A stretch of 40,769 bases of DNA from a virus. Both the position numbers and the translations under genes were made by a program. The DNA lies in the IMG/VR virus record IMGVR_UViG_3300045988_011209. The stretch is one strand, 5' to 3'. Below are positions 1 through 40,769 of the stretch, in pieces. Under the pieces are notes generated by a model, which was not told the origin of the DNA, searched no databases, and worked only from the letters and a program-made list of their open reading frames with translations. Numbering within the stretch: the stretch's first letter is position 1; each line of letters opens with the position of its first letter.

Positions 1-228
1 AAGTCCTTTTACGTGCATGGAATTAATCACATTCTGAAGGTGCTGAAAATGAATATCCGTGATAGGCATATCCGCTATGTTGGATATGTGTTTAAAAGCA
101 ATGTGATAAGACTTAACAGCGCTATCAGAAATAGACTGAGAGTGAATAGGCAGCCACTCGTTAAATAGTTGCCTTAATGTAATGGTATTGCGTTGTCTAC
201 GTTTTAGCATAACAGCGTAACGGCGCAT
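1..228 (-). CDS. N-terminal part (about 76 aa, reverse-complement start ATG at 228..226) of a small tyrosine recombinase that continues on the circle at 40690..40073; putative shufflon invertase
   Basis: Translating the reverse complement of 1..228 gives MRRYAVMLKRRQRNTITLRQLFNEWLPIHSQSISDSAVKSYHIAFKHISNIADMPITD..., which runs in frame into the ORF 40073..40759. The internal Met at 40759 corresponds to window position 69. An RBS GGAGGTG lies 7 nt upstream of the start codon. Total length is 846 nt, which is 281 aa plus stop. Confidence 0.75.
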   Translation of the reverse strand, partial: MRRYAVMLKRRQRNTITLRQLFNEWLPIHSQSISDSAVKSYHIAFKHISNIADMPITDIHFQHLQNVINSMHVKGL

Positions 229-254: not shown

Positions 255-647
255 ATGAATCAATATGTATTTGTGTTAAACGAAATGGGCGAACGAATTA
301 CGTCCTATGTTGATAATACTGTAACGCAAGAGCAGTTGTTAGCAACTGCGAAACAAGAATGGCCAGACGCAGCGGATTATATTTACTCTGCAGATGGCGA
401 CAGCATGCTTGATGAATTTATGAGCGGTAAATTCTATGTAGACGGCAAGTTTGTCGAACCTGCTCCGTATGTTCCTACAAAGGAAGATAAGATTAATGCG
501 ATTAAATCTGAATACGAGCCTCGCTTCAAATCCTTAGAAGAGGCTCAGCGCAGATTGTTATTAATGGGAAAACCTACTGGGGCCATTAGCGCACAATATA
601 TCAAATTAAATACCGAAATGGTAACACGTATTAAGGAGGTACAATAA
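255..647 (+). CDS. hypothetical protein (130 aa), first gene downstream of the tail fiber/shufflon region; possibly fiber-associated
   Basis: ORF with an RBS GAAAGGA upstream of the start. I recognise no motif. Confidence 0.5.
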   Translation: MNQYVFVLNEMGERITSYVDNTVTQEQLLATAKQEWPDAADYIYSADGDSMLDEFMSGKFYVDGKFVEPAPYVPTKEDKINAIKSEYEPRFKSLEEAQRRLLLMGKPTGAISAQYIKLNTEMVTRIKEVQ

Positions 648-648
648 T

Positions 649-813
649 ATGCCTAAATATATCGGAGAAAGTAAAGTACCTGTTATGGAATTTTGTGAGT
701 ACTGCTGGGAAGTGCTTAACGAAGACGGAACATGCCCAACAGAGGGCTGTGTCCATAATGATTTAATGGACGAGGTACACGAAGATGAAACTGCCAGTCC
801 TACACAACTTTAA
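649..813 (+). CDS. small Cys-rich (zinc-ribbon-like) protein, 54 aa, not in the supplied ORF track
   Basis: Strong RBS AAGGAGGT 8 nt before the ATG at 649. Translation is [54 protein letters not shown], which contains a CxxC...CxxxxC pattern. It overlaps the start of the 785 ORF by 29 nt. Confidence 0.35.
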   Translation: MPKYIGESKVPVMEFCEYCWEVLNEDGTCPTEGCVHNDLMDEVHEDETASPTQL

Positions 814-1123
814 TGCGATTAAAGGGGAAGTAATTTCTCTTAACATTGGTTATAACAATGTTGTTGCAAGTGAAAGTCTGTTCGCCTGTGTTCGTAAATA
901 TTCGCCGGATGAAGAATATAAAGCGAAGTTTGATATTGACGTATCTACCGACGAGCTAGAAAACGATGAGGCATCTAAAATTACCCTTTCGTTGGATACA
1001 AATGCCCTAGAAGTCGGTAAATATCAATGGGACTTATTTATTTGGAGTGGCGACCACCCTATTAAATGTCTAGTTAAAGGACAAATTAATATAGTCGAAG
1101 GCGTTAGTAATAGGGGGAAATGA
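785..1123 (+). CDS. hypothetical protein (112 aa)
   Basis: ORF translationally coupled (ATGA overlap) to the collagen-like gene. No motif recognised. Confidence 0.45.
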
Positions 1124-2370
1124 TGGACGAATTACATATTCACGACAATAATGAAACGATCAAAGTTAAGGACAATACTCAAATCGTTAAACTACAAGGA
1201 CCGAAAGGCGACCCAGGAGAGCAAGGTCCTCCTGGCCCTCCAGGCGAACCTGGTCGAAATGGTATTGACGGATTAAACGGTGAGCGAGGGCTGCAAGGGC
1301 CTCCTGGACCGCCTGGTGCTCCTGGTAAAGATGGAATTAATGGCGACCCAGGTCCTAAAGGTGAACCAGGTAAAGACGGAAAACCGTTTACTTACGATAT
1401 GTTCACACAGGAACAATTAGAGAATTTAAAAGGCCCTAGAGGTGAACAAGGTCCACCAGGACCGCCTGGTACTGGTGCTAATGTAGATTTATCAGCCTAT
1501 ACAACTAAACAAGATGCCGAAAATCTTTACCTAAAAAAAGAAGATATAAGAAACTACCTTACCACGCTAGGAGACCCCAAATATGCACTTAAAGAAGAGT
1601 TAAATAAGTATTTGTCTAACACAGATGCAGTTAATAATTACGCTCAAAAGGGTTGGGCTACTCAAACATTCGCCTATAAGAACGATTTAGGCACTTTTAT
1701 TAAGAAAAACGAGATTGCTCAATATGCATTAACACCTGGTGATGCTTCTAATCGTTACGTTAATAAACTAGAGGGGCAGTCCTTCGCTCAAAAATCTGAA
1801 TTAAGTGATTATGTTAAGAAAACGGAAATTAATCAGTATGCATCAAGTACGCAAGGGCCACCAGGGCCTAAAGGTGAACCGTTTAAATATTCTGACTTCA
1901 CGCAAGACCAACTTAATGCACTTAAAGGGCCAAAGGGTGATAAAGGCGAACCATTTAGATATTCTGATTTTACGGCAGAACAATTACTAGCGTTAAGAGG
2001 GCCTAAAGGAGAACCTGGAAGCGGTGGTGGACAAGCTACTTCGCAACCAATCGAAATATATGAAGTGGTTTGGGGAAACGCTATAGCCAGTAATCCAGGG
2101 GCTGATAGAGGTTACTTAGCATTTGACCCATTAACAGGTTGGGGGTACTTGCATTTTGATTTTAAATTGAAAACTCCTTCTGGTAATGGCAATATGGTCG
2201 CATCGCTACCACCTAATGCACCAGTTGCAGTAAGGCTAATTGAAAGAAGCGTTGATGTAAATAACAATAGTATTTATGTTGAACGAAACAGCCGTATAGT
2301 TAAGGGGTGGGGTGTGCCAGCGAACACACGTTATATTATTGATATTATAGGATATTGGAGGAAAGCATAA
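1120..2370 (+). CDS. collagen-like Gly-X-Y repeat protein with a globular C-terminal domain; putative tail fiber or fibre-like structural protein
   Basis: A long uninterrupted [19 protein letters not shown]...[12 protein letters not shown] Gly-X-Y tract with shorter G-X-Y blocks. Three copies of a roughly 24-aa module (K/E)PF(T/K/R)Y(D/S)(M/D)FTxxQLxxL(K/R)GP(K/R)G are present, the last two as a tandem 72-nt repeat at 1876..2019. A non-repetitive C-terminal region of about 140 aa follows. Confidence 0.8.
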
Positions 2371-4281: not shown

Positions 4282-4332
4282 TTTGACATCATTTTTATCA
4301 GGGTACCCTTTGACATCATTTTGACATCAATT
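4282..4332 (+). repeat. three direct copies of TTGACATCA (second attP arm), ending at the integrase stop
   Basis: TTTGACATCATTTT at 4282..4295 and TTTGACATCATTTTGACATCAATT at 4309..4332. Confidence 0.5.
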
Positions 4333-5404
4333 AGAATATGTTTGAAATCTTTTCTACCACATCAGCTTCCATAATCGGAGTAACGTGAGAGTAGGTATCC
4401 ATCGTTTGTTGATATGAAGAATGGCCAAGCCTCATTTGTACGACTTTAAAGTTTACGCCTGCTTCTAATAATAAGGTAGCATGGGTATGGCGAGTATCGT
4501 GCATCGTAAAGTCAGGCCTACCGATTGCAGTAGCAAACTTTTTACACTTTAGAGAAACTTTAGCCGGATCACGAGGGTTTCCGAACTTACCAGGGAACAC
4601 GAGATTATTATTTCTCCAGTTCGTTGCTTTTAATCTTCGTTTATCGACGTGTGTGCGAAGTTTTAGTAGCTCTGCGATAGTTTTATCGTCGAGTGAAATA
4701 GAACGCCTAGACGAGCTATTTTTAGTTGTTTTTGAGATAGTTGTGACTTCGTCGATACGTAAAACTGTCTGATTGACGGTTAACGTCTTTTGTTTTAAGT
4801 TGACATCATCCCAGGCTAAACCGAGTATCTCGCTGCGGCGCAAACCCGTAGTAAATGCTAGCTTGAACAGGGCATGCCATTCGACATCATCAATTTGTTC
4901 GAGGAAGGTTTCAACTTCTTCTTTAGATAGCGTTACCATTTCACGTTTGCGTTCTTGTTTAGGCTTCTTAACCAGCGTGGCCACGTTCTTCGATATTATC
5001 TCATCCATGACCGCCTGTTTAAGGATAGCCCTAAGAACGGTTAGCGTATAGCCGATAGTCCTGGCTGATAAGTGGCTCATGCTATCCATTAAAGCTCTTA
5101 CATTTAATGCGGATAGCTCGACTAATCGTATCGAACCTATGAAAGGTACAATATAGGTTTTAATAATATATTGGTAAGAGGAGAGGGTATTTTGTGAAAT
5201 CGTATCCTTCTTAAGTCTGATCCAATAGTCACACCATCTCTCTATTGTAATCGTATTATCGTAGTTAGCACATTGTGCTAGTGATTCAACGTAAGCATCA
5301 CGTTCAGCAATAGCAGCTTTCTTGGTAGTACCATAAAAGTATTTACGCTTACCATTTATCATTTTAGATACTTGGTAGCGTCCATCAACTCGTTTTTTAG
5401 CCAT
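4331..5404 (-). CDS. int: tyrosine integrase (phage integrase family, 357 aa)
   Basis: Catalytic signature HDTRHTHATLL...LGHSSYQQTMDTYSHV with the conserved R, HxxR, H and Y. An N-terminal domain of about 170 aa is present. The gene is adjacent to the attP-like tRNA fragment. Confidence 0.9.
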   Translation of the reverse strand: MAKKRVDGRYQVSKMINGKRKYFYGTTKKAAIAERDAYVESLAQCANYDNTITIERWCDYWIRLKKDTISQNTLSSYQYIIKTYIVPFIGSIRLVELSALNVRALMDSMSHLSARTIGYTLTVLRAILKQAVMDEIISKNVATLVKKPKQERKREMVTLSKEEVETFLEQIDDVEWHALFKLAFTTGLRRSEILGLAWDDVNLKQKTLTVNQTVLRIDEVTTISKTTKNSSSRRSISLDDKTIAELLKLRTHVDKRRLKATNWRNNNLVFPGKFGNPRDPAKVSLKCKKFATAIGRPDFTMHDTRHTHATLLLEAGVNFKVVQMRLGHSSYQQTMDTYSHVTPIMEADVVEKISNIF

Positions 5405-7760: not shown

Positions 7761-7923
7761 ACGATGCTCATTCTGTAATAAAAGAATTAAAAGTCCTTAC
7801 ACAAATTGGTCGTACCTAACAGGTAAGCCTCGAATTGTGTGCGATAACTGTAAAGACATACACCCGTGTGTAAATAGAATAACACGTTTATCCAAACGTG
7901 CCTAGTGAAAGGAGGTGAGGACA

Positions 7924-8034
7924 TTGCGAGACTGTACAACGTGCCCTAATAGAGATTACTGCATTCCTGATGAGTGCGAGCACTTGGGCACAAAAAAAGC
8001 ACCCCAAAGCACGGCAATGCTAAAGGGCGCATAG
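7924..8034 (+). CDS. possible small Cys-rich ORF (TTG start, 36 aa)
   Basis: Strong RBS AAAGGAGGTGA 6 nt upstream of the TTG. Translation is (M)RDCTTCPNRDYCIPDECEHLGTKKAPQSTAMLKGA. Confidence 0.25.
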   Translation: MRDCTTCPNRDYCIPDECEHLGTKKAPQSTAMLKGA

Positions 8035-8086
8035 AAAAATATCCATTTAAAGTATATCACATCATTAAGCCGAAAGGGAATAGAAC

Positions 8087-8510
8087 AATGATCGAGTTAA
8101 AAATCACAGTTGATAAAGCAGTTGAATTAGAACAAGAAGTGAAAGACCTATATCAATCTATCGTAGGCGCTCCAGTTAAAGAAGAAACATCTACTAAGAA
8201 GGAAGCTCCTAAACAAGCTGAACCAGTTAAAGAAGAAGCACCTGCTCCTAAGGATGAACCTAAATCTGAACCAGAAGAAGAACCAGCAAAAGCTGAAGAA
8301 CCAGCAAAAGCTGAAGAACCTAAAGTAGAGGTTCCTAGCCTTGAAGCAACTCGTGAAGCAGTGAAAGACGTAATGGCAAAAGCCACTGATAAAACGAAAG
8401 CTAAAGGCGAATTCAAAGCCTTCTTAGATAGCATCGGTGCCGAAAAGGTAACATCTGCTACCGATGAACAACGTATTCAAATTATGGAATGGGTGAACAG
8501 CCGTGGCTAA
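8087..8510 (+). CDS. acidic Pro/Glu/Lys-rich low-complexity protein (141 aa)
   Basis: Start chosen at the ATG at 8087 with RBS AAAGGGAA; the track ORF starts at a GTG at 7974 in the same frame. Repeats PAKAEEPAKAEEPK. Confidence 0.5.
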
Positions 8511-9645
8511 GAAACACGCTTTACTAGGTGCATCAAGTAGCGCCAGGTGGCTAGTATGTACTCCTTCAGCAAGACTAGAAGCGATGTTCCCTGATGAACA
8601 ATCGCCGTATGCAGCGGAAGGCACTGTAGCTCACGACCTGGCAGAAGCAATTCTACGGCATAAGCTTGAGGGCAAAAAAGCCCCTAAGCTAGACGACTAC
8701 TCCGCTGAAATGATAGAAGCGGTTAATCGATATGTCGACATTTGCGAAGAAAAGGTAAACGAAGCTCGTGCTCGTTCCTCTGATGCGGAAGCCATGATTG
8801 AAGCACGGCTCGACTTCTCTAGGTGGGTACCTGATGGCTTTGGTACTGGTGACATGGTAATCGTAGCCGATGGCATCCTAGAAGTAATCGACCTAAAGTA
8901 TGGTAAGGGTGTTCCTGTTAGTGCCGTTGAAAACACACAAATGCGACTCTACGCATTAGGTGCTTACGATGTGAACGAGTACTTATACGACATTAAAACT
9001 GTTCGTATGACGATCGTTCAGCCAAGGCTTGATAGCGTATCTACCGACGAAATGCCTATAGCAGACCTGCTTGATTGGGGTGAAGAAATCAAACCAATCG
9101 CGCAACGTGCCTGGGAAGGTGGGGGCGAATGTACGCCTTGCGATTACTGTAACTTCTGTAAAGCACGGCACACCTGCCGAGCATTAGCAGATACTTGCCT
9201 TGATACATTCTATAAGAATGGTGGCAAGCTTAATCAATTACTTACTGACCGTGAAGTATCTGACATTCTAGCGATGAAAGATTTAATCACGAAATGGATT
9301 AAAGGTGTTTACGACTTCGCTTATGAAAAAGCATTATCGGGTGAAAAGCAATGGCCAGGATACAAATTAGTAGAAGGTACATCAAGACGTACCATAACGG
9401 ATCCGGATGCAGCAGCTAAAACATTACTCGATAACGGCTATAAGGAAGAAGACATCTTTAAGCCACGTGAACTCGAAGGTATCACAAACCTACAAAAAGT
9501 ACTCGGTAAAAAGGGCGTTGCCGAATACCTAGAAGCATATATCGAAAAACCGGAGGGCAAGCCTACGCTTGTACCGGAAAGCGATAAACGCCCAGCAATT
9601 AATACAGTTGAAACAATGATGAATGAATTTGAAGATGAGGTATAA
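8503..9645 (+). CDS. PD-(D/E)XK-type nuclease (Cas4/RecB-like fold) with a C-terminal Cys cluster; resembles the DUF2800 family of phage replication modules
   Basis: D...E.K-like stretch GTGDMVIVADGILEVIDLKYGKG, C-terminal CTPCDYCNFCKARHTC, and a position just upstream of the DUF2815-like and PolA genes. Confidence 0.6.
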   Translation: MAKKHALLGASSSARWLVCTPSARLEAMFPDEQSPYAAEGTVAHDLAEAILRHKLEGKKAPKLDDYSAEMIEAVNRYVDICEEKVNEARARSSDAEAMIEARLDFSRWVPDGFGTGDMVIVADGILEVIDLKYGKGVPVSAVENTQMRLYALGAYDVNEYLYDIKTVRMTIVQPRLDSVSTDEMPIADLLDWGEEIKPIAQRAWEGGGECTPCDYCNFCKARHTCRALADTCLDTFYKNGGKLNQLLTDREVSDILAMKDLITKWIKGVYDFAYEKALSGEKQWPGYKLVEGTSRRTITDPDAAAKTLLDNGYKEEDIFKPRELEGITNLQKVLGKKGVAEYLEAYIEKPEGKPTLVPESDKRPAINTVETMMNEFEDEV

Positions 9646-34579: not shown

Positions 34580-36126
34580 ATGAAAAGAAAACGGTCGAAA
34601 AATCTCAAATCAATGGCACTATCATTCCGTTACCCATGCCTACGCAACTCCACTATGAGCTGACCATCAGAAACAAAAGCACTGGTGATTTGTGGCTCAT
34701 AGAACCTGAAGACGGCGTACAAATTACGAGAGCAGTTGACTGTGTTCCAAGTAAAATGACATTTAAAGTACCTAAAGACCCTAACCTCAATTTTGAAGAA
34801 GGTGATACTGTTAAGTTCACTTTAAACGGAGGAGCGGTGTTCTTCGGGTATGTCTTTGAGAAACAGCGTGACGGCAAGAACTCTATATCAGTAACTTGCT
34901 ATGATCAGATACGATATCTCAAGAATAAAGACTGTTATGTTATCGGAGCGATGACTGCGACTGAGTTCATCAAAATGGTGGCCGATGACTTTGGGTTGAA
35001 ATGTGGTTATATGGACGATACCGTGTGGAAAACTCCGGAGAAACCGCAAACCATATTCAAAGATAAGTCATTGCAAGAAATGATATGCCAACTACTCGAT
35101 AAAACGGCTATATACACGCCTAATCATGCGTTCTACCATTTGTACGATGATGCGGGCGAGTTAAGGCTGGCATCGTTTGAGACTATGAAGACAGATATTT
35201 ACATCGATGATGAGTGCATGGAAGATGTGCAGTACACAACTTCCATAGACAAAGAAACATACAACTATGTAAAAATCGTCCGTACAGTCCCAAATGGTGC
35301 ATCAAGTAAATTGGAGAACACATTCATAGCTAAGGACGATAAGAACATCGAGAAATGGGGCAGATTACAGTATCTGCTCATTCCTAAAGAGAAGGACGTC
35401 AATGCAGTAGCACAAGCCAAGGCAATCATGGCTCACAAAAACAAGAAAAGCCGTGAGATTAAGTTGAAAAACGTCATTGGCGATGTGCGTGTGCGTGGTG
35501 GCTCGTTGGTGTATATCAATCGAAACTTTGGCGATATGATTGTTAATAATTACATGATGGTAACATCTGTTACTCATACGTTTAAAACAGGATTTCATGG
35601 AATGGATCTAGATTTACGATACGTTGATAATGATGCGGCTTATGAAGTTGCAAAAGACGAAGATGCGGAAGCAGTTAAGAAGATTGAAGCTGCTAAGAAG
35701 ACCAAAAGCTCCGCAGTCACTACTGGGGCGGGTGGTACAGCAGGTCAAGTCGATACCGCATTCAGCGCCAATGACGGCAGAGTATCTCAATATGGTAGCG
35801 TAGGGTGCGCTGACACAGTATGCGCTACTGGGTCTTGGTACAATTCTGATTTGAAAGCAGAATATGACAAAGGGACGGCATCTGTTCCTACACTTCGCCA
35901 AAACCTAGAAGCGAAAGGCTATGTTACCGAGCAGTTTAACGGCTATGCCAATAAAGGCGATTTATTGATTTACGGCGACGATGATCATGTCGTAATCGCT
36001 GATGGCGCAGGCGGGTGCTTTGGTAACTCCTCTAGCCGTGGATATGCTATGAAGTATGGCAACGCAAATTATGCGTGGCATAATGACGAAGCGCCAACTA
36101 AGATTATTCGAATGGGGGCTAAATAA
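34570..36126 (+). CDS. XkdQ-like baseplate/hub protein with a C-terminal NlpC/P60-like peptidase domain (putative tail-associated lysin)
   Basis: The C-terminal region contains YGSVGCADTVCATGSWY (candidate Cys) and KGDLLIYGDDDHVVIADGAGG, which matches the NlpC/P60 His motif pattern GDL...HV.I..G. Confidence 0.55.
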   Translation: MAIDEKKTVEKSQINGTIIPLPMPTQLHYELTIRNKSTGDLWLIEPEDGVQITRAVDCVPSKMTFKVPKDPNLNFEEGDTVKFTLNGGAVFFGYVFEKQRDGKNSISVTCYDQIRYLKNKDCYVIGAMTATEFIKMVADDFGLKCGYMDDTVWKTPEKPQTIFKDKSLQEMICQLLDKTAIYTPNHAFYHLYDDAGELRLASFETMKTDIYIDDECMEDVQYTTSIDKETYNYVKIVRTVPNGASSKLENTFIAKDDKNIEKWGRLQYLLIPKEKDVNAVAQAKAIMAHKNKKSREIKLKNVIGDVRVRGGSLVYINRNFGDMIVNNYMMVTSVTHTFKTGFHGMDLDLRYVDNDAAYEVAKDEDAEAVKKIEAAKKTKSSAVTTGAGGTAGQVDTAFSANDGRVSQYGSVGCADTVCATGSWYNSDLKAEYDKGTASVPTLRQNLEAKGYVTEQFNGYANKGDLLIYGDDDHVVIADGAGGCFGNSSSRGYAMKYGNANYAWHNDEAPTKIIRMGAK

Positions 36127-36539
36127 TGGATAGCGAGTACATGAAAATCGTTAACACGATTAAAGAAATAGCGAGCACCGTTATATCAAATGGCGAACCC
36201 ATGGAAGTAATCGTCGGCGAAGTTGTAAGTGTGTCACCGCTTGCTATTAAGATAGACCCTAAGTTAACTGTACCCGAAGAGAATATTATTCTTACCAAAA
36301 ACACCTGTGAATGGACTATGGAGATGAGTGTTGATCATGTTACAGAAAACCGAGCAGGTGGCGGCGGTATGGCTGAATACGCAAGCCATAACCATGAGTA
36401 CAAAGGGCGTAAGAAGTATCTCGTTCATAACCAATTAGTGATGGGAGATAAGGTCATTATGCTGAAGGAAACCGGCGGACAGCGTTACATAGCATTAGAT
36501 CGTTGGTATAACCCGAACAGGGGGTGCACGACTAAGTAA
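36126..36539 (+). CDS. XkdR-like small baseplate-associated protein
   Basis: Size and order in the PBSX-like module. Confidence 0.45.
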   Translation: MDSEYMKIVNTIKEIASTVISNGEPMEVIVGEVVSVSPLAIKIDPKLTVPEENIILTKNTCEWTMEMSVDHVTENRAGGGGMAEYASHNHEYKGRKKYLVHNQLVMGDKVIMLKETGGQRYIALDRWYNPNRGCTTK

Positions 36540-36970
36540 TGGCAGATAATTTACTATTACCAAAACAAAATAACGATGCGCTTATTCCTGATACAGTGAA
36601 TTACATTGAACCTTCGCATACGTATGATGTTGATTTTAGAACGGATAGCCAAATTAGGGGCTATGCGGATAAGTTGCGAGCTATGGAGCAAGCAATTTAT
36701 AAAATCATTAATACGGAGCGATACCAATATATTATTTACAGTTGGAATTACGGCATCGAATTACAGGACTTATTCGGTCAGCCAATTCCATATGTGTACG
36801 CTGAGTTACAGCGACGCATAGAAGAGGCTTTACTGAATGACGATAGAATAACTAAAGTATACAACTTTGATTTTAGCCACGAAGGTGGTGACGTCATGGT
36901 TGAGTTTGATGTAGATACCATCTATGGTACGCTACAAAAAATCAAGAAAGGGGTGAAAGGTATTGTATGA
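36539..36970 (+). CDS. gp25-like baseplate wedge protein (XkdS-like)
   Basis: 143 aa immediately upstream of the baseplate J-like gene. Confidence 0.5.
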   Translation: MADNLLLPKQNNDALIPDTVNYIEPSHTYDVDFRTDSQIRGYADKLRAMEQAIYKIINTERYQYIIYSWNYGIELQDLFGQPIPYVYAELQRRIEEALLNDDRITKVYNFDFSHEGGDVMVEFDVDTIYGTLQKIKKGVKGIV

Positions 36971-38042
36971 GCATATGACGGCAAATCGAATTGAAAAACG
37001 AATGCTCGATAGAGTTAAAGATGAATTCGATCGGCGCGAAGGTAGTGTTATATACGATGCTACAGCTCCGGCAAGTGTAGAGTTTGCGGAGCTCTACATC
37101 CTAGCAGATGTTATCTTGAAACAAGCGTTTGCAACTACGGCAGACCGTGAATTCTTGATACTTCGTGCAGCAGAGTTTAATATTTACCCGAAACCGGCCA
37201 CGCAAGGCGAATTTGAAGCTCAGTTCAATATGGATGTACCGATTGGCTCCAGGTTTAATTACAACGAATACAACTTTGTTGTGACAGAGGTAATCGACGA
37301 CACTGAACATAAGTACAAGCTCAAATGCGAACAGTACGGGCGCACTCCTAATGCGACCACAGGTGATATTACGCCAATCCAAGGTATTAATGGCCTTACC
37401 TCTGCGAAGATATTGAAGAATATCACACCAGGTGAAGATGAAGAAGACACAGAAGTGTTTAGAAAACGATACTTTGATGCTTTAAAATCAAAAGCCTACG
37501 GTGGTAATGGTGCGGATTACAAGGAAAAGGTATTAGCTATCCCTGGTGTAGGTGGTGTTAAAGTATACCGCTGTTGGAATGGTGGCGGTACGGTTAAGCT
37601 AGTTGTTTTAAATAGTGACTACATGCCGGCAGCAGATGAACTGATTAAGGAAGTAGAGAACGTGATAGACCCTGCACCGAAAGGCAAAGGCTATGGACTC
37701 GCTCCTATCGGTCACACCGTAACAATCGAAAAAGCTGAACCTGTAACTGTTAACTACCGAATTGAAGTAACTATGATGAGCGGTCACACAATTAACGAAA
37801 TTCAAACTCTTGCAGAAAACGCTATCAAGCAACGATTACTTATTCGTGCTAAAGAATGGTGTAATCAAGACGAGAAGGATCATGTTATTCTTCGGTCTAG
37901 CTTAGTAACGGCTTTAATGGTTGAGCTACCTAATGTTCTTGATGTTGGCAGGATTACTATAAACGGTGCTTCTGTTTCAAAGCTTGAATTGAAGGATAAT
38001 CAAATCCCTGTATTAGGGACGATTACTTTGGTGGCAGTATGA
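36963..38042 (+). CDS. baseplate J-like protein (XkdT-like)
   Basis: 359 aa, at the conserved position in the module. Confidence 0.65.
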   Translation: MYEHMTANRIEKRMLDRVKDEFDRREGSVIYDATAPASVEFAELYILADVILKQAFATTADREFLILRAAEFNIYPKPATQGEFEAQFNMDVPIGSRFNYNEYNFVVTEVIDDTEHKYKLKCEQYGRTPNATTGDITPIQGINGLTSAKILKNITPGEDEEDTEVFRKRYFDALKSKAYGGNGADYKEKVLAIPGVGGVKVYRCWNGGGTVKLVVLNSDYMPAADELIKEVENVIDPAPKGKGYGLAPIGHTVTIEKAEPVTVNYRIEVTMMSGHTINEIQTLAENAIKQRLLIRAKEWCNQDEKDHVILRSSLVTALMVELPNVLDVGRITINGASVSKLELKDNQIPVLGTITLVAV

Positions 38043-38671
38043 TTACAGATTTCGGCATTTTTAAGAGAGATATCGATATCTCACAATTCGCCGTTCCGTT
38101 AACTCGAGATTCTCGGGATATCCAAGAAGTATATCGAGTGGAATCGGCTGAATTACAACTGCTCTGGGATATCATGCTAGATATCTTTAAGGAAGAATAC
38201 ATCTATACCGCAGCAGATTACGGACTTGAAGCCTGGGAACAAATATTAGGCATAAATCCTCCAGATTTGACAGACACAGAAGGGCGCAGAAGTGAAATAC
38301 TATCGGTATTAATCGGACAGCGTCCTTTTACTATGCCTAAAGTACAAGAAATGCTTAACTTTAAGTTTGGTAATCATGTAGTAACGCACTCTGTTAACTC
38401 CGATAGGTATGAGTACTGGTTAGATGTAGTAGATGGCTTTGAGACACAGCTCAACAATATCATTGATTACGTTGAGCCTTTAATTCCTAAGAACTTAATC
38501 ATCAAAACTAAAAGTACTACAAACCTTAACGGCGAAATATACATCGGCGCTATCTCCGATGTATATGAATCCTTTCATGTCGGGGCTGCATTAGATAAGT
38601 TTGACTTCAAAGTAGGCTCTGACATTAACATAGGCATGAGCTTCGACGTATTAGAAACAATTAAAGTATAA
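38039..38671 (+). CDS. XkdU-like tail protein (tail protein I-like)
   Basis: 210 aa, translationally coupled to the J-like gene. Confidence 0.5.
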   Translation: MITDFGIFKRDIDISQFAVPLTRDSRDIQEVYRVESAELQLLWDIMLDIFKEEYIYTAADYGLEAWEQILGINPPDLTDTEGRRSEILSVLIGQRPFTMPKVQEMLNFKFGNHVVTHSVNSDRYEYWLDVVDGFETQLNNIIDYVEPLIPKNLIIKTKSTTNLNGEIYIGAISDVYESFHVGAALDKFDFKVGSDINIGMSFDVLETIKV

Positions 38672-38680
38672 GGAGAACAC

Positions 38681-39586
38681 ATGGCTTCTATTTATCCAAA
38701 TACACGATTAACCAATTATGGCCGTGAGTTAATCGCAAGATCGCAAGCAACTGGTAAGAAGTTGCAGTATATTAAATTAGTTACTGGAGACGGCCAACTC
38801 GATAATCAAAATATCGATACTATGACCTCCGTACTAGCTCCAAAATTGGAGTGCCCGTTTACCTCTAACGGTGAATTCGTAGGTGACGGGCAATTCAGAA
38901 TTGAATTTGCCGTTGGCAATAGCACAGTAAATAGCGGGTTCTTCGCTAGGGAATTGGGTGTATACGCTAATCTCGAGGGTGAGTCCGATTCCGCTGCCAA
39001 ACTAATTGCATATAGTAATGGTGGCAACTATGCATCCTATATTCCGTCCAAGGAGACCCCAATCAATTCTAAAGTGTTCTCTTTAGATGTTGTAATTGGC
39101 AATTCCACAAATGTAACCGTTAAGAAGATTGATGCGGCGTATCTGACTAGAGGTGCATTAGAGGCCCATAGCCGTGACACCAGTGCGCACGCTCCTATCA
39201 CAGACCAAATTAAAGCAATCCTCGGTAGTGCTAACTGGAAAGACTCTCCGGCGAGTACACTTGTTACAATTAAAAACTTACTGGGTCAAGGTGCTATCGT
39301 GGCATCTAAGCTCGATGCTAATGCGGGCTTTGTTAAATTTGCTAATGGTTTCACTATCCAGTGGGGAATTGGTGGCCAAGATAATGTTGTAAAAACAGAA
39401 GTAACGTTCCCTATTAGATTTACAAGATTATTCATGGCTAATGCTATTGACGCATATTGGAGTGGTTCTGATACACCTAGATATTTTGCAAACTCTGTAA
39501 GCGAAAGCAACAATACAAAAGCTGTATTTGTGGCGAGTGATAGATATGCCGCATCCTATTACTGGTTCGCACTAGGAATTATCTAA
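38681..39586 (+). CDS. tail fiber protein: constant N-terminal part (to 39357), in-frame recombination core encoding QWG (39358..39366), and variable C-terminal tip Cv1 (39367..39586)
   Basis: RBS AAGGAGAACAC. The C-terminal 73 aa after QWG are homologous to two inverted cassettes downstream. Confidence 0.7.
   Translation: MASIYPNTRLTNYGRELIARSQATGKKLQYIKLVTGDGQLDNQNIDTMTSVLAPKLECPFTSNGEFVGDGQFRIEFAVGNSTVNSGFFARELGVYANLEGESDSAAKLIAYSNGGNYASYIPSKETPINSKVFSLDVVIGNSTNVTVKKIDAAYLTRGALEAHSRDTSAHAPITDQIKAILGSANWKDSPASTLVTIKNLLGQGAIVASKLDANAGFVKFANGFTIQWGIGGQDNVVKTEVTFPIRFTRLFMANAIDAYWSGSDTPRYFANSVSESNNTKAVFVASDRYAASYYWFALGII
39358..39366 (+). repeat. recombination core site A, CCAGTGGGG, in + orientation inside the tail fiber gene (codons CAG TGG GGA = QWG)
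   Basis: An identical 9-mer occurs twice downstream in inverted orientation, at 39809..39817 and 40060..40068, in the same codon phase. Confidence 0.6.
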
Positions 39587-39817
39587 TTCCCTACCGCGAT
39601 ATATCTGCCCCAAGCACTAGTTTTATTTAATCCATCTCTTGCCGCCTGAGAATATACTTTAACCCCTGTTCTAGTATGCTCTCTAAATGAATGGACCTGG
39701 TTATCAGTATTGTTACCATTCACATCATTACCAACTGCCGCGAAGCAAGTAGTATCAAAGGAAACAGGAAATGAAATCGTACCTCCTATTGGTACGTTAT
39801 TAAACGCTCCCCACTGG
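39583..39817 (-). CDS. silent alternative tail-fiber C-terminal cassette Cv2 (QWG plus 75 aa), inverted and promoterless
   Basis: Minus-strand translation ...YLQWGAFNNVPIGGTISFPVSFDTTCFAAVGNDVNGNNTDNQVHSFREHTRTGVKVYSQAARDGLNKTSAWGRYIAVGN*. It is homologous to Cv1 (TFPIRFT/SFPVSFDT, FMANAID/FAAVGNDV, YYWFALG/RYIAVG). It begins at core site B. Confidence 0.6.
39809..39817 (-). repeat. recombination core site B (CCAGTGGGG on the minus strand), heading cassette Cv2
   Basis: + strand reads CCCCACTGG. Minus-strand codons are CAG TGG GGA. Confidence 0.6.
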
Positions 39818-39827
39818 AGATAGGTAA

Positions 39828-40068
39828 TTAGCTGAGTCCAACGCACAGCCAGGTAAAGTTACCGGCATTCCCTCGGTTAGTTAAAAAACGTATAGAAGTT
39901 CTATTATTATTTGAGAAGCCACTGTTCCAAGAAACATAGAACTCCTCGCCTCTTGTAGATATGCTCGCTGAGTCGTCGGTACATATTGCGACTAAAACAT
40001 TACACCTGATAGGCAATGTTACATCACAATATGTATTTTGATTTAAGAACCAAGTTAGCCCCCACTGG
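39828..40068 (-). CDS. silent alternative tail-fiber C-terminal cassette Cv3 (QWG plus 77 aa), inverted and promoterless
   Basis: Minus-strand translation from site C: QWGLTWFLNQNTYCDVTLPIRCNVLVAICTDDSASISTRGEEFYVSWNSGFSNNNRTSIRFLTNRGNAGNFTWLCVGLS*. It is open in frame from the core site with no ATG start of its own; the track ORF starts at a TTG. It is homologous to Cv1. Confidence 0.55.
40060..40068 (-). repeat. recombination core site C (CCAGTGGGG on the minus strand; part of an 11-bp palindrome CCCCA-C-TGGGG), 4 nt from the recombinase stop codon
   Basis: + strand reads CCCCACTGG, identical to site B. Minus-strand codons CAG TGG GGG are in phase with Cv3. Confidence 0.6.
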
Positions 40069-40072
40069 GGAG

Positions 40073-40769
40073 TTACTTTAATAATTCTATCGTTTTACGT
40101 AATTCACGAATGGTTTTGTGCGTATACACCCTGGTAGTGATATCGCCTTGTTTATGGCCTAGTAAGGAACGTAATGCGTTAGGTGGCGCAACCGCATCAA
40201 GTAAACTGGCGAATGTGTGCCTGGTATCGTGGATAGTATGCTTACAGTTAAGCTGCTTCATAATATCCTGGAAATGCTTACGGAATGATGTGTAACTGAT
40301 AGTGAATAGGTATTCGCTAGTATGTAGTTGCTCTATTATAGGCATGATGCGGTGATGAATGGGAATAATACGACCTTCACTGGCTTTTGTTTTAGCGTGC
40401 CTCACAATAAGGTAGGATGATCGTCTATTGATATCTTGCCCGCGCAAATTAAGTACCTCACCTATGCGGAGCCCAGTGTAAAGCAGTATTAAAATCATGC
40501 GAGAGTAAGGAGTATCTATTACCCATAACTTGTTGATTTGTTGGCGAGTGAATACTCTCCTTTTTATCGTTGGTATGTTGGGTCCTAGATTTAGATGCTG
40601 GGCGTAATTAGTAATAGGATAATCCTTGATGATTGCGTAATTAAATAATTGATTAAGTAACGTGCGGACTTTCTTACAAGATGAGTAGGTAAGTCCTTTT
40701 ACGTGCATGGAATTAATCACATTCTGAAGGTGCTGAAAATGAATATCCGTGATAGGCATATCCGCTATG
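40073..40769 (-). CDS. small tyrosine recombinase (C-terminal part within the window; the gene continues at 228..1 across the circular junction); putative Rci-like shufflon invertase
   Basis: Catalytic signature R in TGLRIGE, HDTRHTFASLL, LGHKQ, and TTRVYTH (Tyr). There is no N-terminal arm-binding domain. Bases 40691..40769 duplicate 1..79. Confidence 0.85.
   Translation of the reverse strand, partial: IADMPITDIHFQHLQNVINSMHVKGLTYSSCKKVRTLLNQLFNYAIIKDYPITNYAQHLNLGPNIPTIKRRVFTRQQINKLWVIDTPYSRMILILLYTGLRIGEVLNLRGQDINRRSSYLIVRHAKTKASEGRIIPIHHRIMPIIEQLHTSEYLFTISYTSFRKHFQDIMKQLNCKHTIHDTRHTFASLLDAVAPPNALRSLLGHKQGDITTRVYTHKTIRELRKTIELLK
40691..40769. repeat. 79-bp exact duplicate of window positions 1..79 (assembly overlap of a circular or circularly permuted genome)
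   Basis: The base-by-base identity was checked. The duplication lies inside a single ORF split across the window ends. Confidence 0.85.

What the first reader, a model, noticed from the sequence alone, without database searches (positions are those of the whole stretch)
39340..40769. Tail-fiber C-terminal shufflon driven by a compact tyrosine recombinase
The tail fiber gene (38681..39586) contains the 9-mer CCAGTGGGG at 39358..39366, encoding Gln-Trp-Gly.

The identical 9-mer occurs twice more downstream, on the opposite strand: at 39809..39817 and at 40060..40068. Each inverted copy sits in exactly the same codon phase (CAG TGG GGN) at the head of a promoterless, start-codon-less open frame. 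These frames, Cv2 and Cv3, are about 75 aa long and recognisably homologous to the native fiber tip Cv1. Examples are PIRFTRLFMANAID / SFPVSFDTTCFAAVGNDV / PIRCNVLVAICTDD and YYWFALG / RYIAVG / FTWLCVG.

The last core lies 4 nt from the stop codon of a 281-aa tyrosine recombinase that has all catalytic residues and no arm-binding domain.

Inversion between the + site and either - site would fuse the constant fiber body to a different receptor-binding tip while preserving the reading frame. This is the architecture of a shufflon (R64 Rci-type) or G-segment-like host-range switch. Here it is operated by a tyrosine recombinase rather than a Gin/Cin-type serine invertase, and it sits in a phage that also carries a separate, canonical integrase.

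The cores are palindromic (CCA-G-TGG; site C extends to CCCCA-C-TGGGG), as expected for crossover regions.
Basis: partly seen in the sequence, partly recalled or inferred. Interest (0 to 1): 0.95.

Follow-up and report, generated by a model that had tools for sequence, protein, structure and literature searches.

The report
Veillonella phage tail-fibre tip shufflon
A Veillonella prophage carries three interchangeable tail-fibre tips that a small neighbouring tyrosine recombinase very probably swaps by DNA inversion; the system is real and looks active, but phages of Bifidobacterium and Eggerthella were already known to do the same thing.

Summary
CCAGTGGGG occurs exactly three times in the window: 39358 (+), 39809 (-) and 40060 (-). 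Shuffles predict 0.08 occurrences. Each copy codes Gln-Trp-Gly at the head of a tail-fibre tip domain (Gp53-like_C; weak for Cv3) of 75-79 aa. A 281-aa tyrosine recombinase without an arm-binding domain ends 4 nt from the last site.

- In 76 related Veillonella phage and prophage loci, nine tip types occur in 29 arrangements.
- Flanks swap exactly at an 8-bp crossover, C|CAGTGGG.
- Phages 99.8-100% identical over the compared parts of the locus carry different arrangements.
- The predicted product of an inversion between sites A and C (constant body plus Cv3) exists in databases at 99% identity.
- One contig matches the window with breakpoints exactly at sites A and C. It also carries the un-inverted junction, so both isomers were present in one sample.

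It is not unprecedented. The Rin shufflon of Bifidobacterium prophages (2018) and of Eggerthella prophages (2022) has the same logic. This is a new member of that kind. It differs in host (Negativicutes), in phage type (contractile tail, Mu-like fibre), and in having its crossover site inside conserved codons. A sister lineage uses a different core, CCAAGGGGG. Catalysis by the adjacent recombinase is inferred, not shown.

The parts
38681..39357 (+). Constant part of the tail-fibre gene (Rc, codons 1-226), with an N-terminal tail-collar fibre domain
   Evidence: ORF. Pfam PF12571 and PHROG 7037 'tail fiber protein'. It lies downstream of the Baseplate_J and Mu Gp48-like genes. Its 3' flank GGTTTCACTATC stays next to the first core in L001-L010, and the same flank located site A in all 76 complete loci.
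39358..39366 (+). Site A: the core 9-mer CCAGTGGGG inside the expressed fibre gene. The conserved extended site is TnnCCAGTGGGGA at 39355..39367, and the crossover is delimited to 39358..39365.
   Evidence: The blastn breakpoints of L147 and L148 end at 39366.
39359..39586 (+). Cv1: the currently expressed fibre tip (75 aa plus stop), a Gp53-like_C domain
   Evidence: Pfam PF21882, 1.7e-8. In related loci it is found at positions 1-4 and in both orientations.
39583..39816 (-). Cv2: a silent tip cassette (77 aa plus stop), tail-to-tail with Cv1 and overlapping it by 4 nt. It has no start codon of its own.
   Evidence: Translation. Pfam PF21882, 3.7e-9. It is fused to Rc in 11 related loci.
39809..39817 (-). 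Site B: the core 9-mer at the head of Cv2, 10 nt after the Cv3 stop codon
   Evidence: Several metagenome contigs end at this site.
39828..40067 (-). Cv3: a silent tip cassette (79 aa plus stop). It has no start codon after the upstream in-frame stop.
   Evidence: Translation. Pfam match is weak at 0.073. hhalign against the Cv1 profile gives probability 84%. It is fused to Rc in L005, L042, L050, L018, L147 and L148, and in more than 120 database protein clusters.
40060..40068 (-). Site C: the core 9-mer, 4 nt downstream of the recombinase stop codon
   Evidence: The blastn breakpoints of L147 and L148 start at 40068. Contigs L035, L047, L073 and L086 begin at this core.
40073..40769 (-). Tyrosine recombinase (putative invertase), codons 50-281 plus stop. 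The gene continues across the window junction.
80..228 (-). Tyrosine recombinase, codons 1-49 and the first base of codon 50 (ATG at 228). Window 1..79 duplicates 40691..40769.

Best explanation
This is a multiple-inversion switch (a shufflon) for the receptor-binding tip of the tail fibre of a temperate, contractile-tailed Veillonella phage.

The fibre gene has a constant body of 226 codons. It ends at a crossover site embedded in the codons for a conserved Gln-Trp-Gly motif, which opens the Gp53-like tip domain. Two further tips, without promoter or start codon, lie downstream on the other strand. Each begins with the same site in the same reading phase.

Site-specific recombination between the + site and either - site inverts the DNA between them. 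This fuses a different tip to the constant body in frame. Later inversions between internal sites reshuffle the silent cassettes. Strand exchange takes place within the 8 bp C|CAGTGGG, which fits the 6-8-bp overlap typical of tyrosine recombinases.

The catalyst is most probably the 281-aa arm-less tyrosine recombinase encoded immediately beyond the last site. The separate 357-aa integrase would handle chromosomal integration. The biological result would be a phage population that hedges between receptors or host strains.

Shown here: the anatomy; the natural isomers with exact breakpoints; the rapid turnover relative to point mutation; and the coexistence of two junctions in one sample.

Inferred: that the adjacent recombinase does the cutting; that the tips bind different receptors; and how deletion between directly repeated sites is avoided.
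For: 1. Three exact cores lie within 711 bp, against 0.08 expected.

2. All 10 loci retrieved through the neighbouring baseplate protein, that is independently of the recombinase, have the recombinase right after the cassettes.

3. In 76 complete loci there are 9 cassette types, 2-4 per locus, in 29 arrangements. The first cassette is always + and the last always -. Cv1 always stays convergent with Cv2 or Cv9, as expected because no site lies between them. For the window's own set, Cv1+Cv2-Cv3- occurs 11 times, Cv2+Cv1-Cv3- 6 times and Cv3+Cv1+Cv2- 3 times.

4. Left flanks stay with their position and cassette heads swap exactly at the core. The base after CAGTGGG (G or T) travels with the cassette, and bases -2 and -3 stay behind.

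5. Contigs 99.8-100% identical in Rc, the recombinase and all four cassettes carry different arrangements (three arrangements among L088, L093 and L097). With members of the same clade that are at least 99.1% identical, five arrangements are seen.

6. The predicted chimera of Rc plus Cv3 matches database proteins at 99% identity over its full length, with more than 120 clusters at 92% or above.

7. L147 equals window 35681..39366 followed by the reverse of 40068..39314. The breakpoints are therefore the 9-mers. The contig end also carries the parental Cv1|core|Rc junction, so both isomers were in sample ERZ28625989.

8. 22 of 88 contigs break inside the shufflon. Four start within 1 nt of the site C core (L035, L047, L073, L086), and five more start within about 15 nt of a core, at site C (L068) or site B (L030, L038, L048, L078).

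9. 225 cassettes are intact and only 2-3 are damaged, so silent copies are maintained.

10. The recombinase has the full catalytic set and no arm domain.

11. A sister lineage has a 48%-identical recombinase and a different core, CCAAGGGGG, in the same position. Enzyme and site therefore co-vary.
Against: There is no direct read-level or experimental evidence for inversion in this particular genome. Its closest relatives with other arrangements are only about 93-94% identical at the DNA level.

Catalysis by the adjacent protein is inferred.

Sites B and C are direct repeats, so deletion of Cv3 should be possible. Loci with only two cassettes exist and could be such deletion products.

No clear pair of inverted binding arms is visible around the core.

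That Cv3 belongs to the same fold as Cv1 and Cv2 rests on weak profile scores. The structure prediction was uninformative.
Confidence: 0.88

Rival explanations
1. Inversions do occur at these cores but are catalysed in trans by another recombinase, such as the phage's 357-aa integrase or a host enzyme. The 281-aa protein would then have a different job, for example as a second integrase or a resolvase.
For: No experiment links the enzyme to the sites. Trans-acting invertases exist; Mavrich et al. discuss Mpi of Bacteroides and a recombinase-less inverted locus in bifidophages. The nearest relatives of the 281-aa protein are ordinary integrases.
Against: The gene sits immediately after the last core in all 10 loci retrieved without reference to it. 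In the loci retrieved through the recombinase, the core again follows its stop codon wherever the contig extends that far. Its stop codon is 4 nt from site C. It lacks the arm-binding domain that integrases use. It lies inside the phage, between the fibre and lysis genes, not at a prophage end. In the sister lineage the recombinase sequence and the core sequence change together.
Confidence: 0.07
2. The cassettes are static leftovers of fibre paralogues. The shared 9-mer merely reflects the conserved Gln-Trp-Gly codons of the Gp53-like domain, and nothing inverts.
For: QWG sits at profile positions 9-11 of Pfam Gp53-like_C, so part of the nucleotide identity is forced by the protein motif.
Against: There are 29 arrangements with exact core breakpoints. 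Near-identical genomes carry different arrangements. The predicted chimeric protein exists at 99% identity. Silent cassettes are kept intact.
Confidence: 0.02
3. The different arrangements arise from general homologous recombination between co-infecting phages, or from assembly artefacts, rather than from site-specific recombination.
For: The data are metagenome assemblies, and at least one contig end (L147) is chimeric between two junctions.
Against: The shared sequence at the breakpoints is only 8-13 bp, too short for RecA-type exchange. The same rules hold across assemblies from many projects and assemblers: first cassette +, last cassette -, and the convergent pair never split. MAGs and one finished V. 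parvula chromosome carry the locus. Assembly breaks at the cores are what a mixed population would produce.
Confidence: 0.03

Closest known systems
Rin shufflon of Bifidobacterium prophages (Bb423phi1, Bl157phi1, Bl30698phi1; Mavrich et al. 2018, PMC6109161) and of Eggerthella lenta clade-1 prophages (PMC8778435)
   Same: - A constant N-terminal receptor-binding-protein gene is followed by several promoterless C-terminal cassettes.
- A short repeated crossover site heads each cassette.
- An arm-less tyrosine recombinase flanks the cassettes and is distinct from the phage's lambda-like integrase.
- Evidence comes from isomers among related prophages and within samples.
   Different: - Host phylum is Negativicutes, not Actinobacteria.
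- The phage has a contractile tail with Baseplate_J and Mu Gp48-like genes and a Mu/P2-type tail-collar fibre, not a siphovirus RBP.
- Tips are 74-81-aa Gp53-like_C domains, not 95-100-aa TP901-1-like or lectin heads.
- The core is CCAGTGGGG, read as conserved Gln-Trp-Gly codons, not the asymmetric 11-bp rix site TTCCCTAACCC.
- Two tips form a tail-to-tail pair with no site between them.
- Homology of the recombinase to Rin could not be tested.
R64 (IncI1) shufflon with the Rci tyrosine recombinase
   Same: It is a multiple-inversion system with at least three sites. It is driven by a tyrosine recombinase encoded next to the segments, and it swaps C-terminal ends of an adhesin in frame.
   Different: - The target there is the PilV pilus adhesin of a conjugative plasmid, not a phage fibre.
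- No similarity to Rci was detected: tblastn against 72,556 plasmids at E<=1e-3 listed no match from Escherichia or Salmonella, the usual hosts of IncI plasmids.
- Rci carries a C-terminal extension and uses 31-bp sfx sites with one conserved arm (prior knowledge). Here only about 13 bp are conserved.
Gin/Cin/Pin/Min invertible tail-fibre segments of phages Mu, P1, e14 and p15B
   Same: The biological outcome is the same: switching of tail-fibre C-termini, and hence host range, by inversion. The fibre N-terminus belongs to the same tail-collar family as in Mu and P2.
   Different: - Those systems use serine recombinases with a Fis-dependent enhancer (prior knowledge). This one has a Phage_integrase-family enzyme.
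- Their segments also carry a tail-fibre assembly chaperone gene. Here the cassettes are bare 75-80-aa domains.
Sister Veillonella-type phage shufflon with core CCAAGGGGG
   Same: The layout is the same: recombinase stop codon, core, and 2-6 shuffled cassettes ending at a fibre body. The recombinase is 48% identical. T(-4), C(-1) and the GGGGA stretch of the site are conserved.
   Different: - The two central bases of the core differ (AG instead of GT), so the motif reads Gln-Gly-Gly and is not palindromic.
- There are more cassettes and they are longer (66-93 aa).
- The fibre body is 26-43% identical.

Membership tests
Phage tyrosine-invertase receptor-binding-protein shufflon (Rin type) | A constant N-terminal fibre or RBP gene is followed by several promoterless, start-less C-terminal cassettes. 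| tested here: met
   Rc is 38681..39357, followed by Cv1, Cv2 and Cv3. Related loci hold 2-4 cassettes each.
Phage tyrosine-invertase receptor-binding-protein shufflon (Rin type) | The same short crossover sequence heads every cassette and lies inside the expressed gene, in the same reading phase. | tested here: met
   Three exact 9-mers, all in the phase C|CAG TGG GG. The site logo from 167 distinct sites is.
Phage tyrosine-invertase receptor-binding-protein shufflon (Rin type) | An arm-less tyrosine recombinase flanks the cassettes and is distinct from the phage integrase. | tested here: met
   Pfam Phage_integrase plus a SAM-like domain. The alignment starts at lambda Int residue 70. It is 21% identical to the 357-aa integrase.
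Phage tyrosine-invertase receptor-binding-protein shufflon (Rin type) | Inversion isomers exist among related genomes or within samples, with breakpoints at the sites. | tested here: met
Phage tyrosine-invertase receptor-binding-protein shufflon (Rin type) | The recombinase is homologous to Rin of Bb423phi1 beyond the level of the superfamily. | not testable with these tools
   No Rin sequence was available. No Bifidobacterium phage appeared among tblastn hits at E<=1e-8 in the phage collection, but those prophages may not be in that collection.
Phage tyrosine-invertase receptor-binding-protein shufflon (Rin type) | The recombinase catalyses inversion, and the tips change host range. | not testable with these tools
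   This needs experiments. To my knowledge it has not been demonstrated biochemically for Rin either.
R64 Rci shufflon | The recombinase is similar in sequence to Rci. | tested here: not met
   tblastn against PLSDB at E<=1e-3 hit 79 records. No Escherichia or Salmonella plasmid appeared among the organisms listed.
R64 Rci shufflon | The target is the C-terminus of the PilV thin-pilus adhesin. | tested here: not met
   The target here is a phage tail fibre next to baseplate genes.
R64 Rci shufflon | There are multiple inversions among three or more sites, and only inversions. | tested here: inconclusive
   Multiple inversions are shown. Two-cassette loci could be deletion products, so 'only inversions' is not established.
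Gin/Cin/Min serine-invertase fibre switches | The enzyme is a serine recombinase of the resolvase/invertase family. | tested here: not met
   The adjacent enzyme matches Phage_integrase, not Resolvase. No other recombinase ORF lies between the fibre and the lysis genes.
Tyrosine recombinase superfamily | The catalytic residues Arg-Lys-His-Arg-His/Trp-Tyr are present in the C-terminal domain. | tested here: met
   R151, K176, H230, R233, H255 and Y265, aligned to XerA and XerC-like structures.

The most novel reading that the evidence does not exclude
The Veillonella phage invertases arose independently of Rin from the local phage-integrase clade by loss of the arm-binding domain. They work on a minimal site of about 13 bp, TnnCCA(GT/AG)GGGGA, written into the codons of a conserved fibre motif. 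The two lineages are mutually orthogonal because their cores differ at two central bases. This would be convergent evolution of phage tip shufflons, and a natural pair of small, orthogonal invertases whose preference for inversion needs no arm sites.
Probability: 0.35. Interest if true: 0.6.

Novelty: new member of a known kind. Interest (0 to 1): 0.5.

Why it matters
Veillonella is an abundant commensal of the human mouth and gut, and this prophage family is common. Its baseplate protein is indexed in 328 blocks of the assembly collection.

A fibre that cycles among 2-4 tips, drawn from a pool of at least nine, means that host range for these phages belongs to a population and not to a genome sequence. 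That matters for phage-host assignment in metagenomics. It also explains why assemblies of these phages break at this locus.

The result extends tyrosine-recombinase tip shufflons beyond the actinobacterial hosts (Bifidobacterium, Eggerthella) in which they were described to a diderm Firmicute with a contractile-tailed phage. This suggests the strategy is widespread.

The small enzyme, the very short site and a sister lineage with a different core may also be useful as compact, orthogonal inversion tools.

Tried and rejected
- **DNA search of isolated phages.** blastn of 38000..40769 against 50,697 isolated phage records found no match, so no cultured relative is available for comparison.
- **Nearest recombinases in isolated phages.** The closest were in Fusobacterium phiHugo, Butyrivibrio Idris and R. 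gnavus phiRgIBDN1, at 32% identity or less. Their neighbourhoods show ordinary integrases of 341-384 aa between the lysis and lysogeny modules, with no cassettes. I therefore rejected the idea that this is a known invertase clade among isolated phages.
- **Rci relationship.** Rejected, because no match was listed from the usual hosts of IncI plasmids.
- **P0125 (271 aa, 45% identical).** It gave a single locus that is cut off right after the gene, so it was uninformative.
- **Solved structures.** A sequence search of the PDB with the fibre found nothing, even at E<=1.
- **Structure prediction.** AlphaFold2 on the fibre with a 16-row, 95%-identical alignment gave mean pLDDT 38.8, which is unusable. 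No fold search was run.
- **Promoter and terminator scan of 38500..40769.** Nothing exceeded chance.
- **Literature.** Searches for a Veillonella phage shufflon or tail-fibre inversion found no report. Searches for phage tyrosine invertases found only the Rin papers and general surveys of programmed inversions.
- **Recent duplication of the phage's own integrase.** Considered and rejected, since the two proteins are only 21% identical.
- **Palindromy as a required feature of the core.** Considered and rejected, since the sister core is not palindromic.
Full report
**1. What is in the sequence**

The window is a circularly closed contig. Bases 1..79 repeat 40691..40769, so the true length is 40,690 bp.

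The region lies at the end of a contractile-tail module. That module comprises a sheath-initiator-like gene, Baseplate_J (36963..38042) and a Mu Gp48-like gene (38039..38671).

The next gene, 38681..39586, encodes a 301-aa tail fibre. It has an N-terminal tail-collar fibre domain and a C-terminal Gp53-like_C domain at residues 219-299.

CCAGTGGGG occurs at 39358 (+), 39809 (-) and 40060 (-), and nowhere else. Shuffles predict 0.08 exact matches, and 0 of 100 shuffles reached 3.

In all three copies the phase is C|CAG TGG GG. This reads Gln-Trp-Gly, which corresponds to positions 9-11 of the Pfam Gp53-like_C profile.

From these motifs run three tips.
- Cv1 is 75 aa and is expressed.
- Cv2 is 77 aa, on the minus strand, tail-to-tail with Cv1.
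- Cv3 is 79 aa, on the minus strand, and ends 10 nt before site B.

The silent cassettes have no usable start codon, and no promoter-like signal exceeds chance.

Four nucleotides beyond site C is the stop codon of a minus-strand gene that wraps around the window junction (40073..40769 plus 80..228). It encodes a 281-aa tyrosine recombinase.
- Pfam matches are Phage_integrase at 1.3e-18 and a SAM-like core-binding domain.
- The catalytic residues are R151, K176, H230, R233, H255 and Y265.
- Its residue 12 aligns with residue 70 of lambda Int, so the arm-binding domain is absent.

A conventional 357-aa integrase lies at 4331..5404, after the lysis genes. It is only 21% identical to the recombinase.

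**2. Is it more than conserved codons?**

Part of the nucleotide identity is forced by the QWG motif, so the test has to be comparative.

The neighbouring baseplate protein occurs unchanged on many metagenome contigs. The ten loci fetched through it all carry the fibre, the cassettes and the recombinase in the same layout. Searching with the recombinase gave 88 more loci. These include MAGs of Veillonella parvula and V. dispar and the finished chromosome of V. parvula UTDB1-3. The host is therefore Veillonella.

Seventy-six loci are complete from site A to site C. They contain nine cassette types of 74-81 aa (one copy, in L098, carries an in-frame deletion to 67 aa). All are headed by QWG, or by QWV in type Cv9. 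Each locus has 2-4 cassettes, and 29 different arrangements occur.

The arrangements obey the rules of an inversion-only shufflon.
- The first cassette is always + and the last always -.
- Cv1 is always convergent with Cv2 or Cv9, and there is no site between them.
- Single cassettes such as Cv3, Cv4, Cv5 and Cv6 move and flip as units.

For the window's own set I found Cv1+Cv2-Cv3- 11 times, Cv2+Cv1-Cv3- 6 times (the product of an A×B inversion) and Cv3+Cv1+Cv2- 3 times. L003 has the arrangement expected after a single A×C inversion.

**3. Where the exchange happens**

In every locus the sequence to the left of a core stays with its position. It is GGTTTCACTATC at the fibre body and TATTAAAGTAACTCCC next to the recombinase. 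The sequence to the right, the cassette head, changes partner.

The base after CAGTGGG is G in most cassettes but T in Cv9, and it always travels with Cv9. Bases -2 and -3 stay with the position. The exchange therefore lies within the 8 bp C|CAGTGGG. This fits the 6-8-bp overlap regions of tyrosine recombinases, which is established knowledge.

Beyond the core, T at -4 and GA at +1/+2 are conserved, giving TnnCCAGTGGGGA. No convincing pair of inverted binding arms is visible.

**4. Is it active?**

- Contigs from different datasets that are 99.8-100% identical in the fibre body, the recombinase and all four cassettes carry different arrangements (three among L088, L093 and L097). Five arrangements are seen once clade members at least 99.1% identical are included. 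Inversion is therefore much faster than point mutation.
- The protein predicted from an A×C inversion of the window (body plus Cv3, not contiguous in the window) matches database proteins at 99% identity over its full length. More than 120 clusters match at 92% or above.
- Contig L147 (40,760 bp) equals window 35681..39366 followed by the reverse complement of 40068..39314. The breakpoints are therefore exactly the 9-mers at A and C. Its last 44 nt are the reversed end of the fibre body, which is the parental Cv1-core-body junction. Both isomers were thus present in that one sample.
- 22 of 88 contigs break inside the shufflon, which is 1 kb or less. Four start within 1 nt of the site C core, and five more start within about 15 nt of a core, at site C or site B. 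An assembler would behave this way on a mixed population.
- Silent cassettes are almost always intact: 225 intact against 2-3 damaged.

**5. Who does it?**

The link to the 281-aa recombinase is an inference, but a strong one.
- The gene was adjacent in all 10 loci retrieved independently of it. In the loci retrieved through the recombinase, the core again follows its stop codon wherever the contig extends that far.
- The last site abuts its stop codon.
- It lacks the arm-binding domain of integrases.
- It lies inside the phage, between the fibre and lysis genes, while a canonical integrase occupies the canonical position.

Its nearest relatives at 49% identity or less are proteins of 320-350 aa in which residue 65 or so aligns with its residue 15. 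That is the shape of a full-length integrase, and the set includes Veillonella proteins annotated as tyrosine-type recombinases or integrases. In isolated phages the nearest relatives are ordinary integrases.

A sister lineage has a recombinase of about 300 aa (representative fragment P0123, 290 aa) that is 48% identical. In the same position after the stop codon it has a different core, CCAAGGGGG, which reads Gln-Gly-Gly. That core heads 2-6 shuffled cassettes, and the last joins a related fibre body (26-43% identical) ending in ...LII|QGG. Enzyme and core thus change together.

That core is not palindromic, although T(-4), C(-1) and GGGGA are kept.

**6. Comparison with what is known**

The closest known system is the Rin shufflon of Bifidobacterium prophages. 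It has a constant RBP N-terminus, five variable C-terminal cassettes and 11-bp rix sites. Its flanking arm-less tyrosine invertase is distinct from the integrase, and isomers were seen among prophages and within read sets (PMC6109161). The same system was later reported in Eggerthella lenta prophages (PMC8778435). Tail fibres are also a recognised target class in a systematic survey of gene-altering inversions (PMC9881135).

The present system has the same logic. It differs in host phylum, tail type, tip fold, site sequence and cassette layout.

It is not Rci-like by sequence and not a Gin/Cin-type serine system.

I found no report of it in Veillonella phages in the searchable library. That library does not cover subscription journals.

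**7. Verdict**

Novelty is moderate: this is a new member of a known kind, with unusually rich natural evidence and a sister lineage that uses a different core.

Still open:
- the biochemistry: catalysis, the minimal site, and how deletion between direct repeats is limited;
- the receptors of the tips;
- whether the enzyme shares an origin with Rin.

The structure prediction failed for lack of alignment depth.

Noticed in passing
window 1..79 and 40691..40769: There is an exact 79-bp terminal direct repeat. The window is therefore a circularly closed assembly of 40,690 bp, and the recombinase gene is split across its ends.
   Followed up: yes
L103-L141 (for example L108, L129, L133), just downstream of the recombinase stop codon: A sister shufflon family has a 48%-identical recombinase. 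It uses the core CCAAGGGGG (Gln-Gly-Gly) and holds 2-6 shuffled cassettes of 66-93 aa. Its fibre body ends in ...FGKLFGGLII|QGG. L108 shares an 82%-identical 362-bp stretch with window 415..770.
   Followed up: partly
L147 4380..4434 (contig end); also the contig starts of L035, L047, L073, L086, L030, L038, L048 and L078: Metagenome contigs of this phage family tend to end at, or a few bases from, the crossover cores. L147 ends in a chimeric junction (Cv1-core-reversed fibre body). This is a practical warning that assemblies of these phages are mosaics of isomers.
   Followed up: partly
window 1120..2370 (+): A 416-aa ORF lies downstream of the recombinase. Its counterparts in related loci carry Pfam Collagen repeats and vary in length (413-446 aa). 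It may be a second, length-variable fibre-like protein. Endolysin (Amidase_3) genes follow it.
   Followed up: no
L031, L033, L060, L061, L082 (distance from site A to site C 465 bp): These loci hold only two cassettes (Cv1+ Cv2-). The Cv2 head sits directly at the recombinase-proximal site, which is the exact product expected from deletion between the directly repeated sites B and C. It could equally be the ancestral state.
   Followed up: no
Cv5 cassettes, for example L001 at offset 549 and L003 at offset 143: An internal, out-of-frame CAGTGGGT lies inside Cv5-type cassettes. None of the 76 arrangements has a breakpoint there, so a core-like 8-mer alone may not be sufficient for recombination.
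   Followed up: no
L100 (Butyrivibrio phage Idris, MN882554.2), 7792..8843: A putative reverse transcriptase gene lies near the lysis module of this unrelated phage. It may belong to a diversity-generating retroelement, a different route to tail-protein variation.
   Followed up: no
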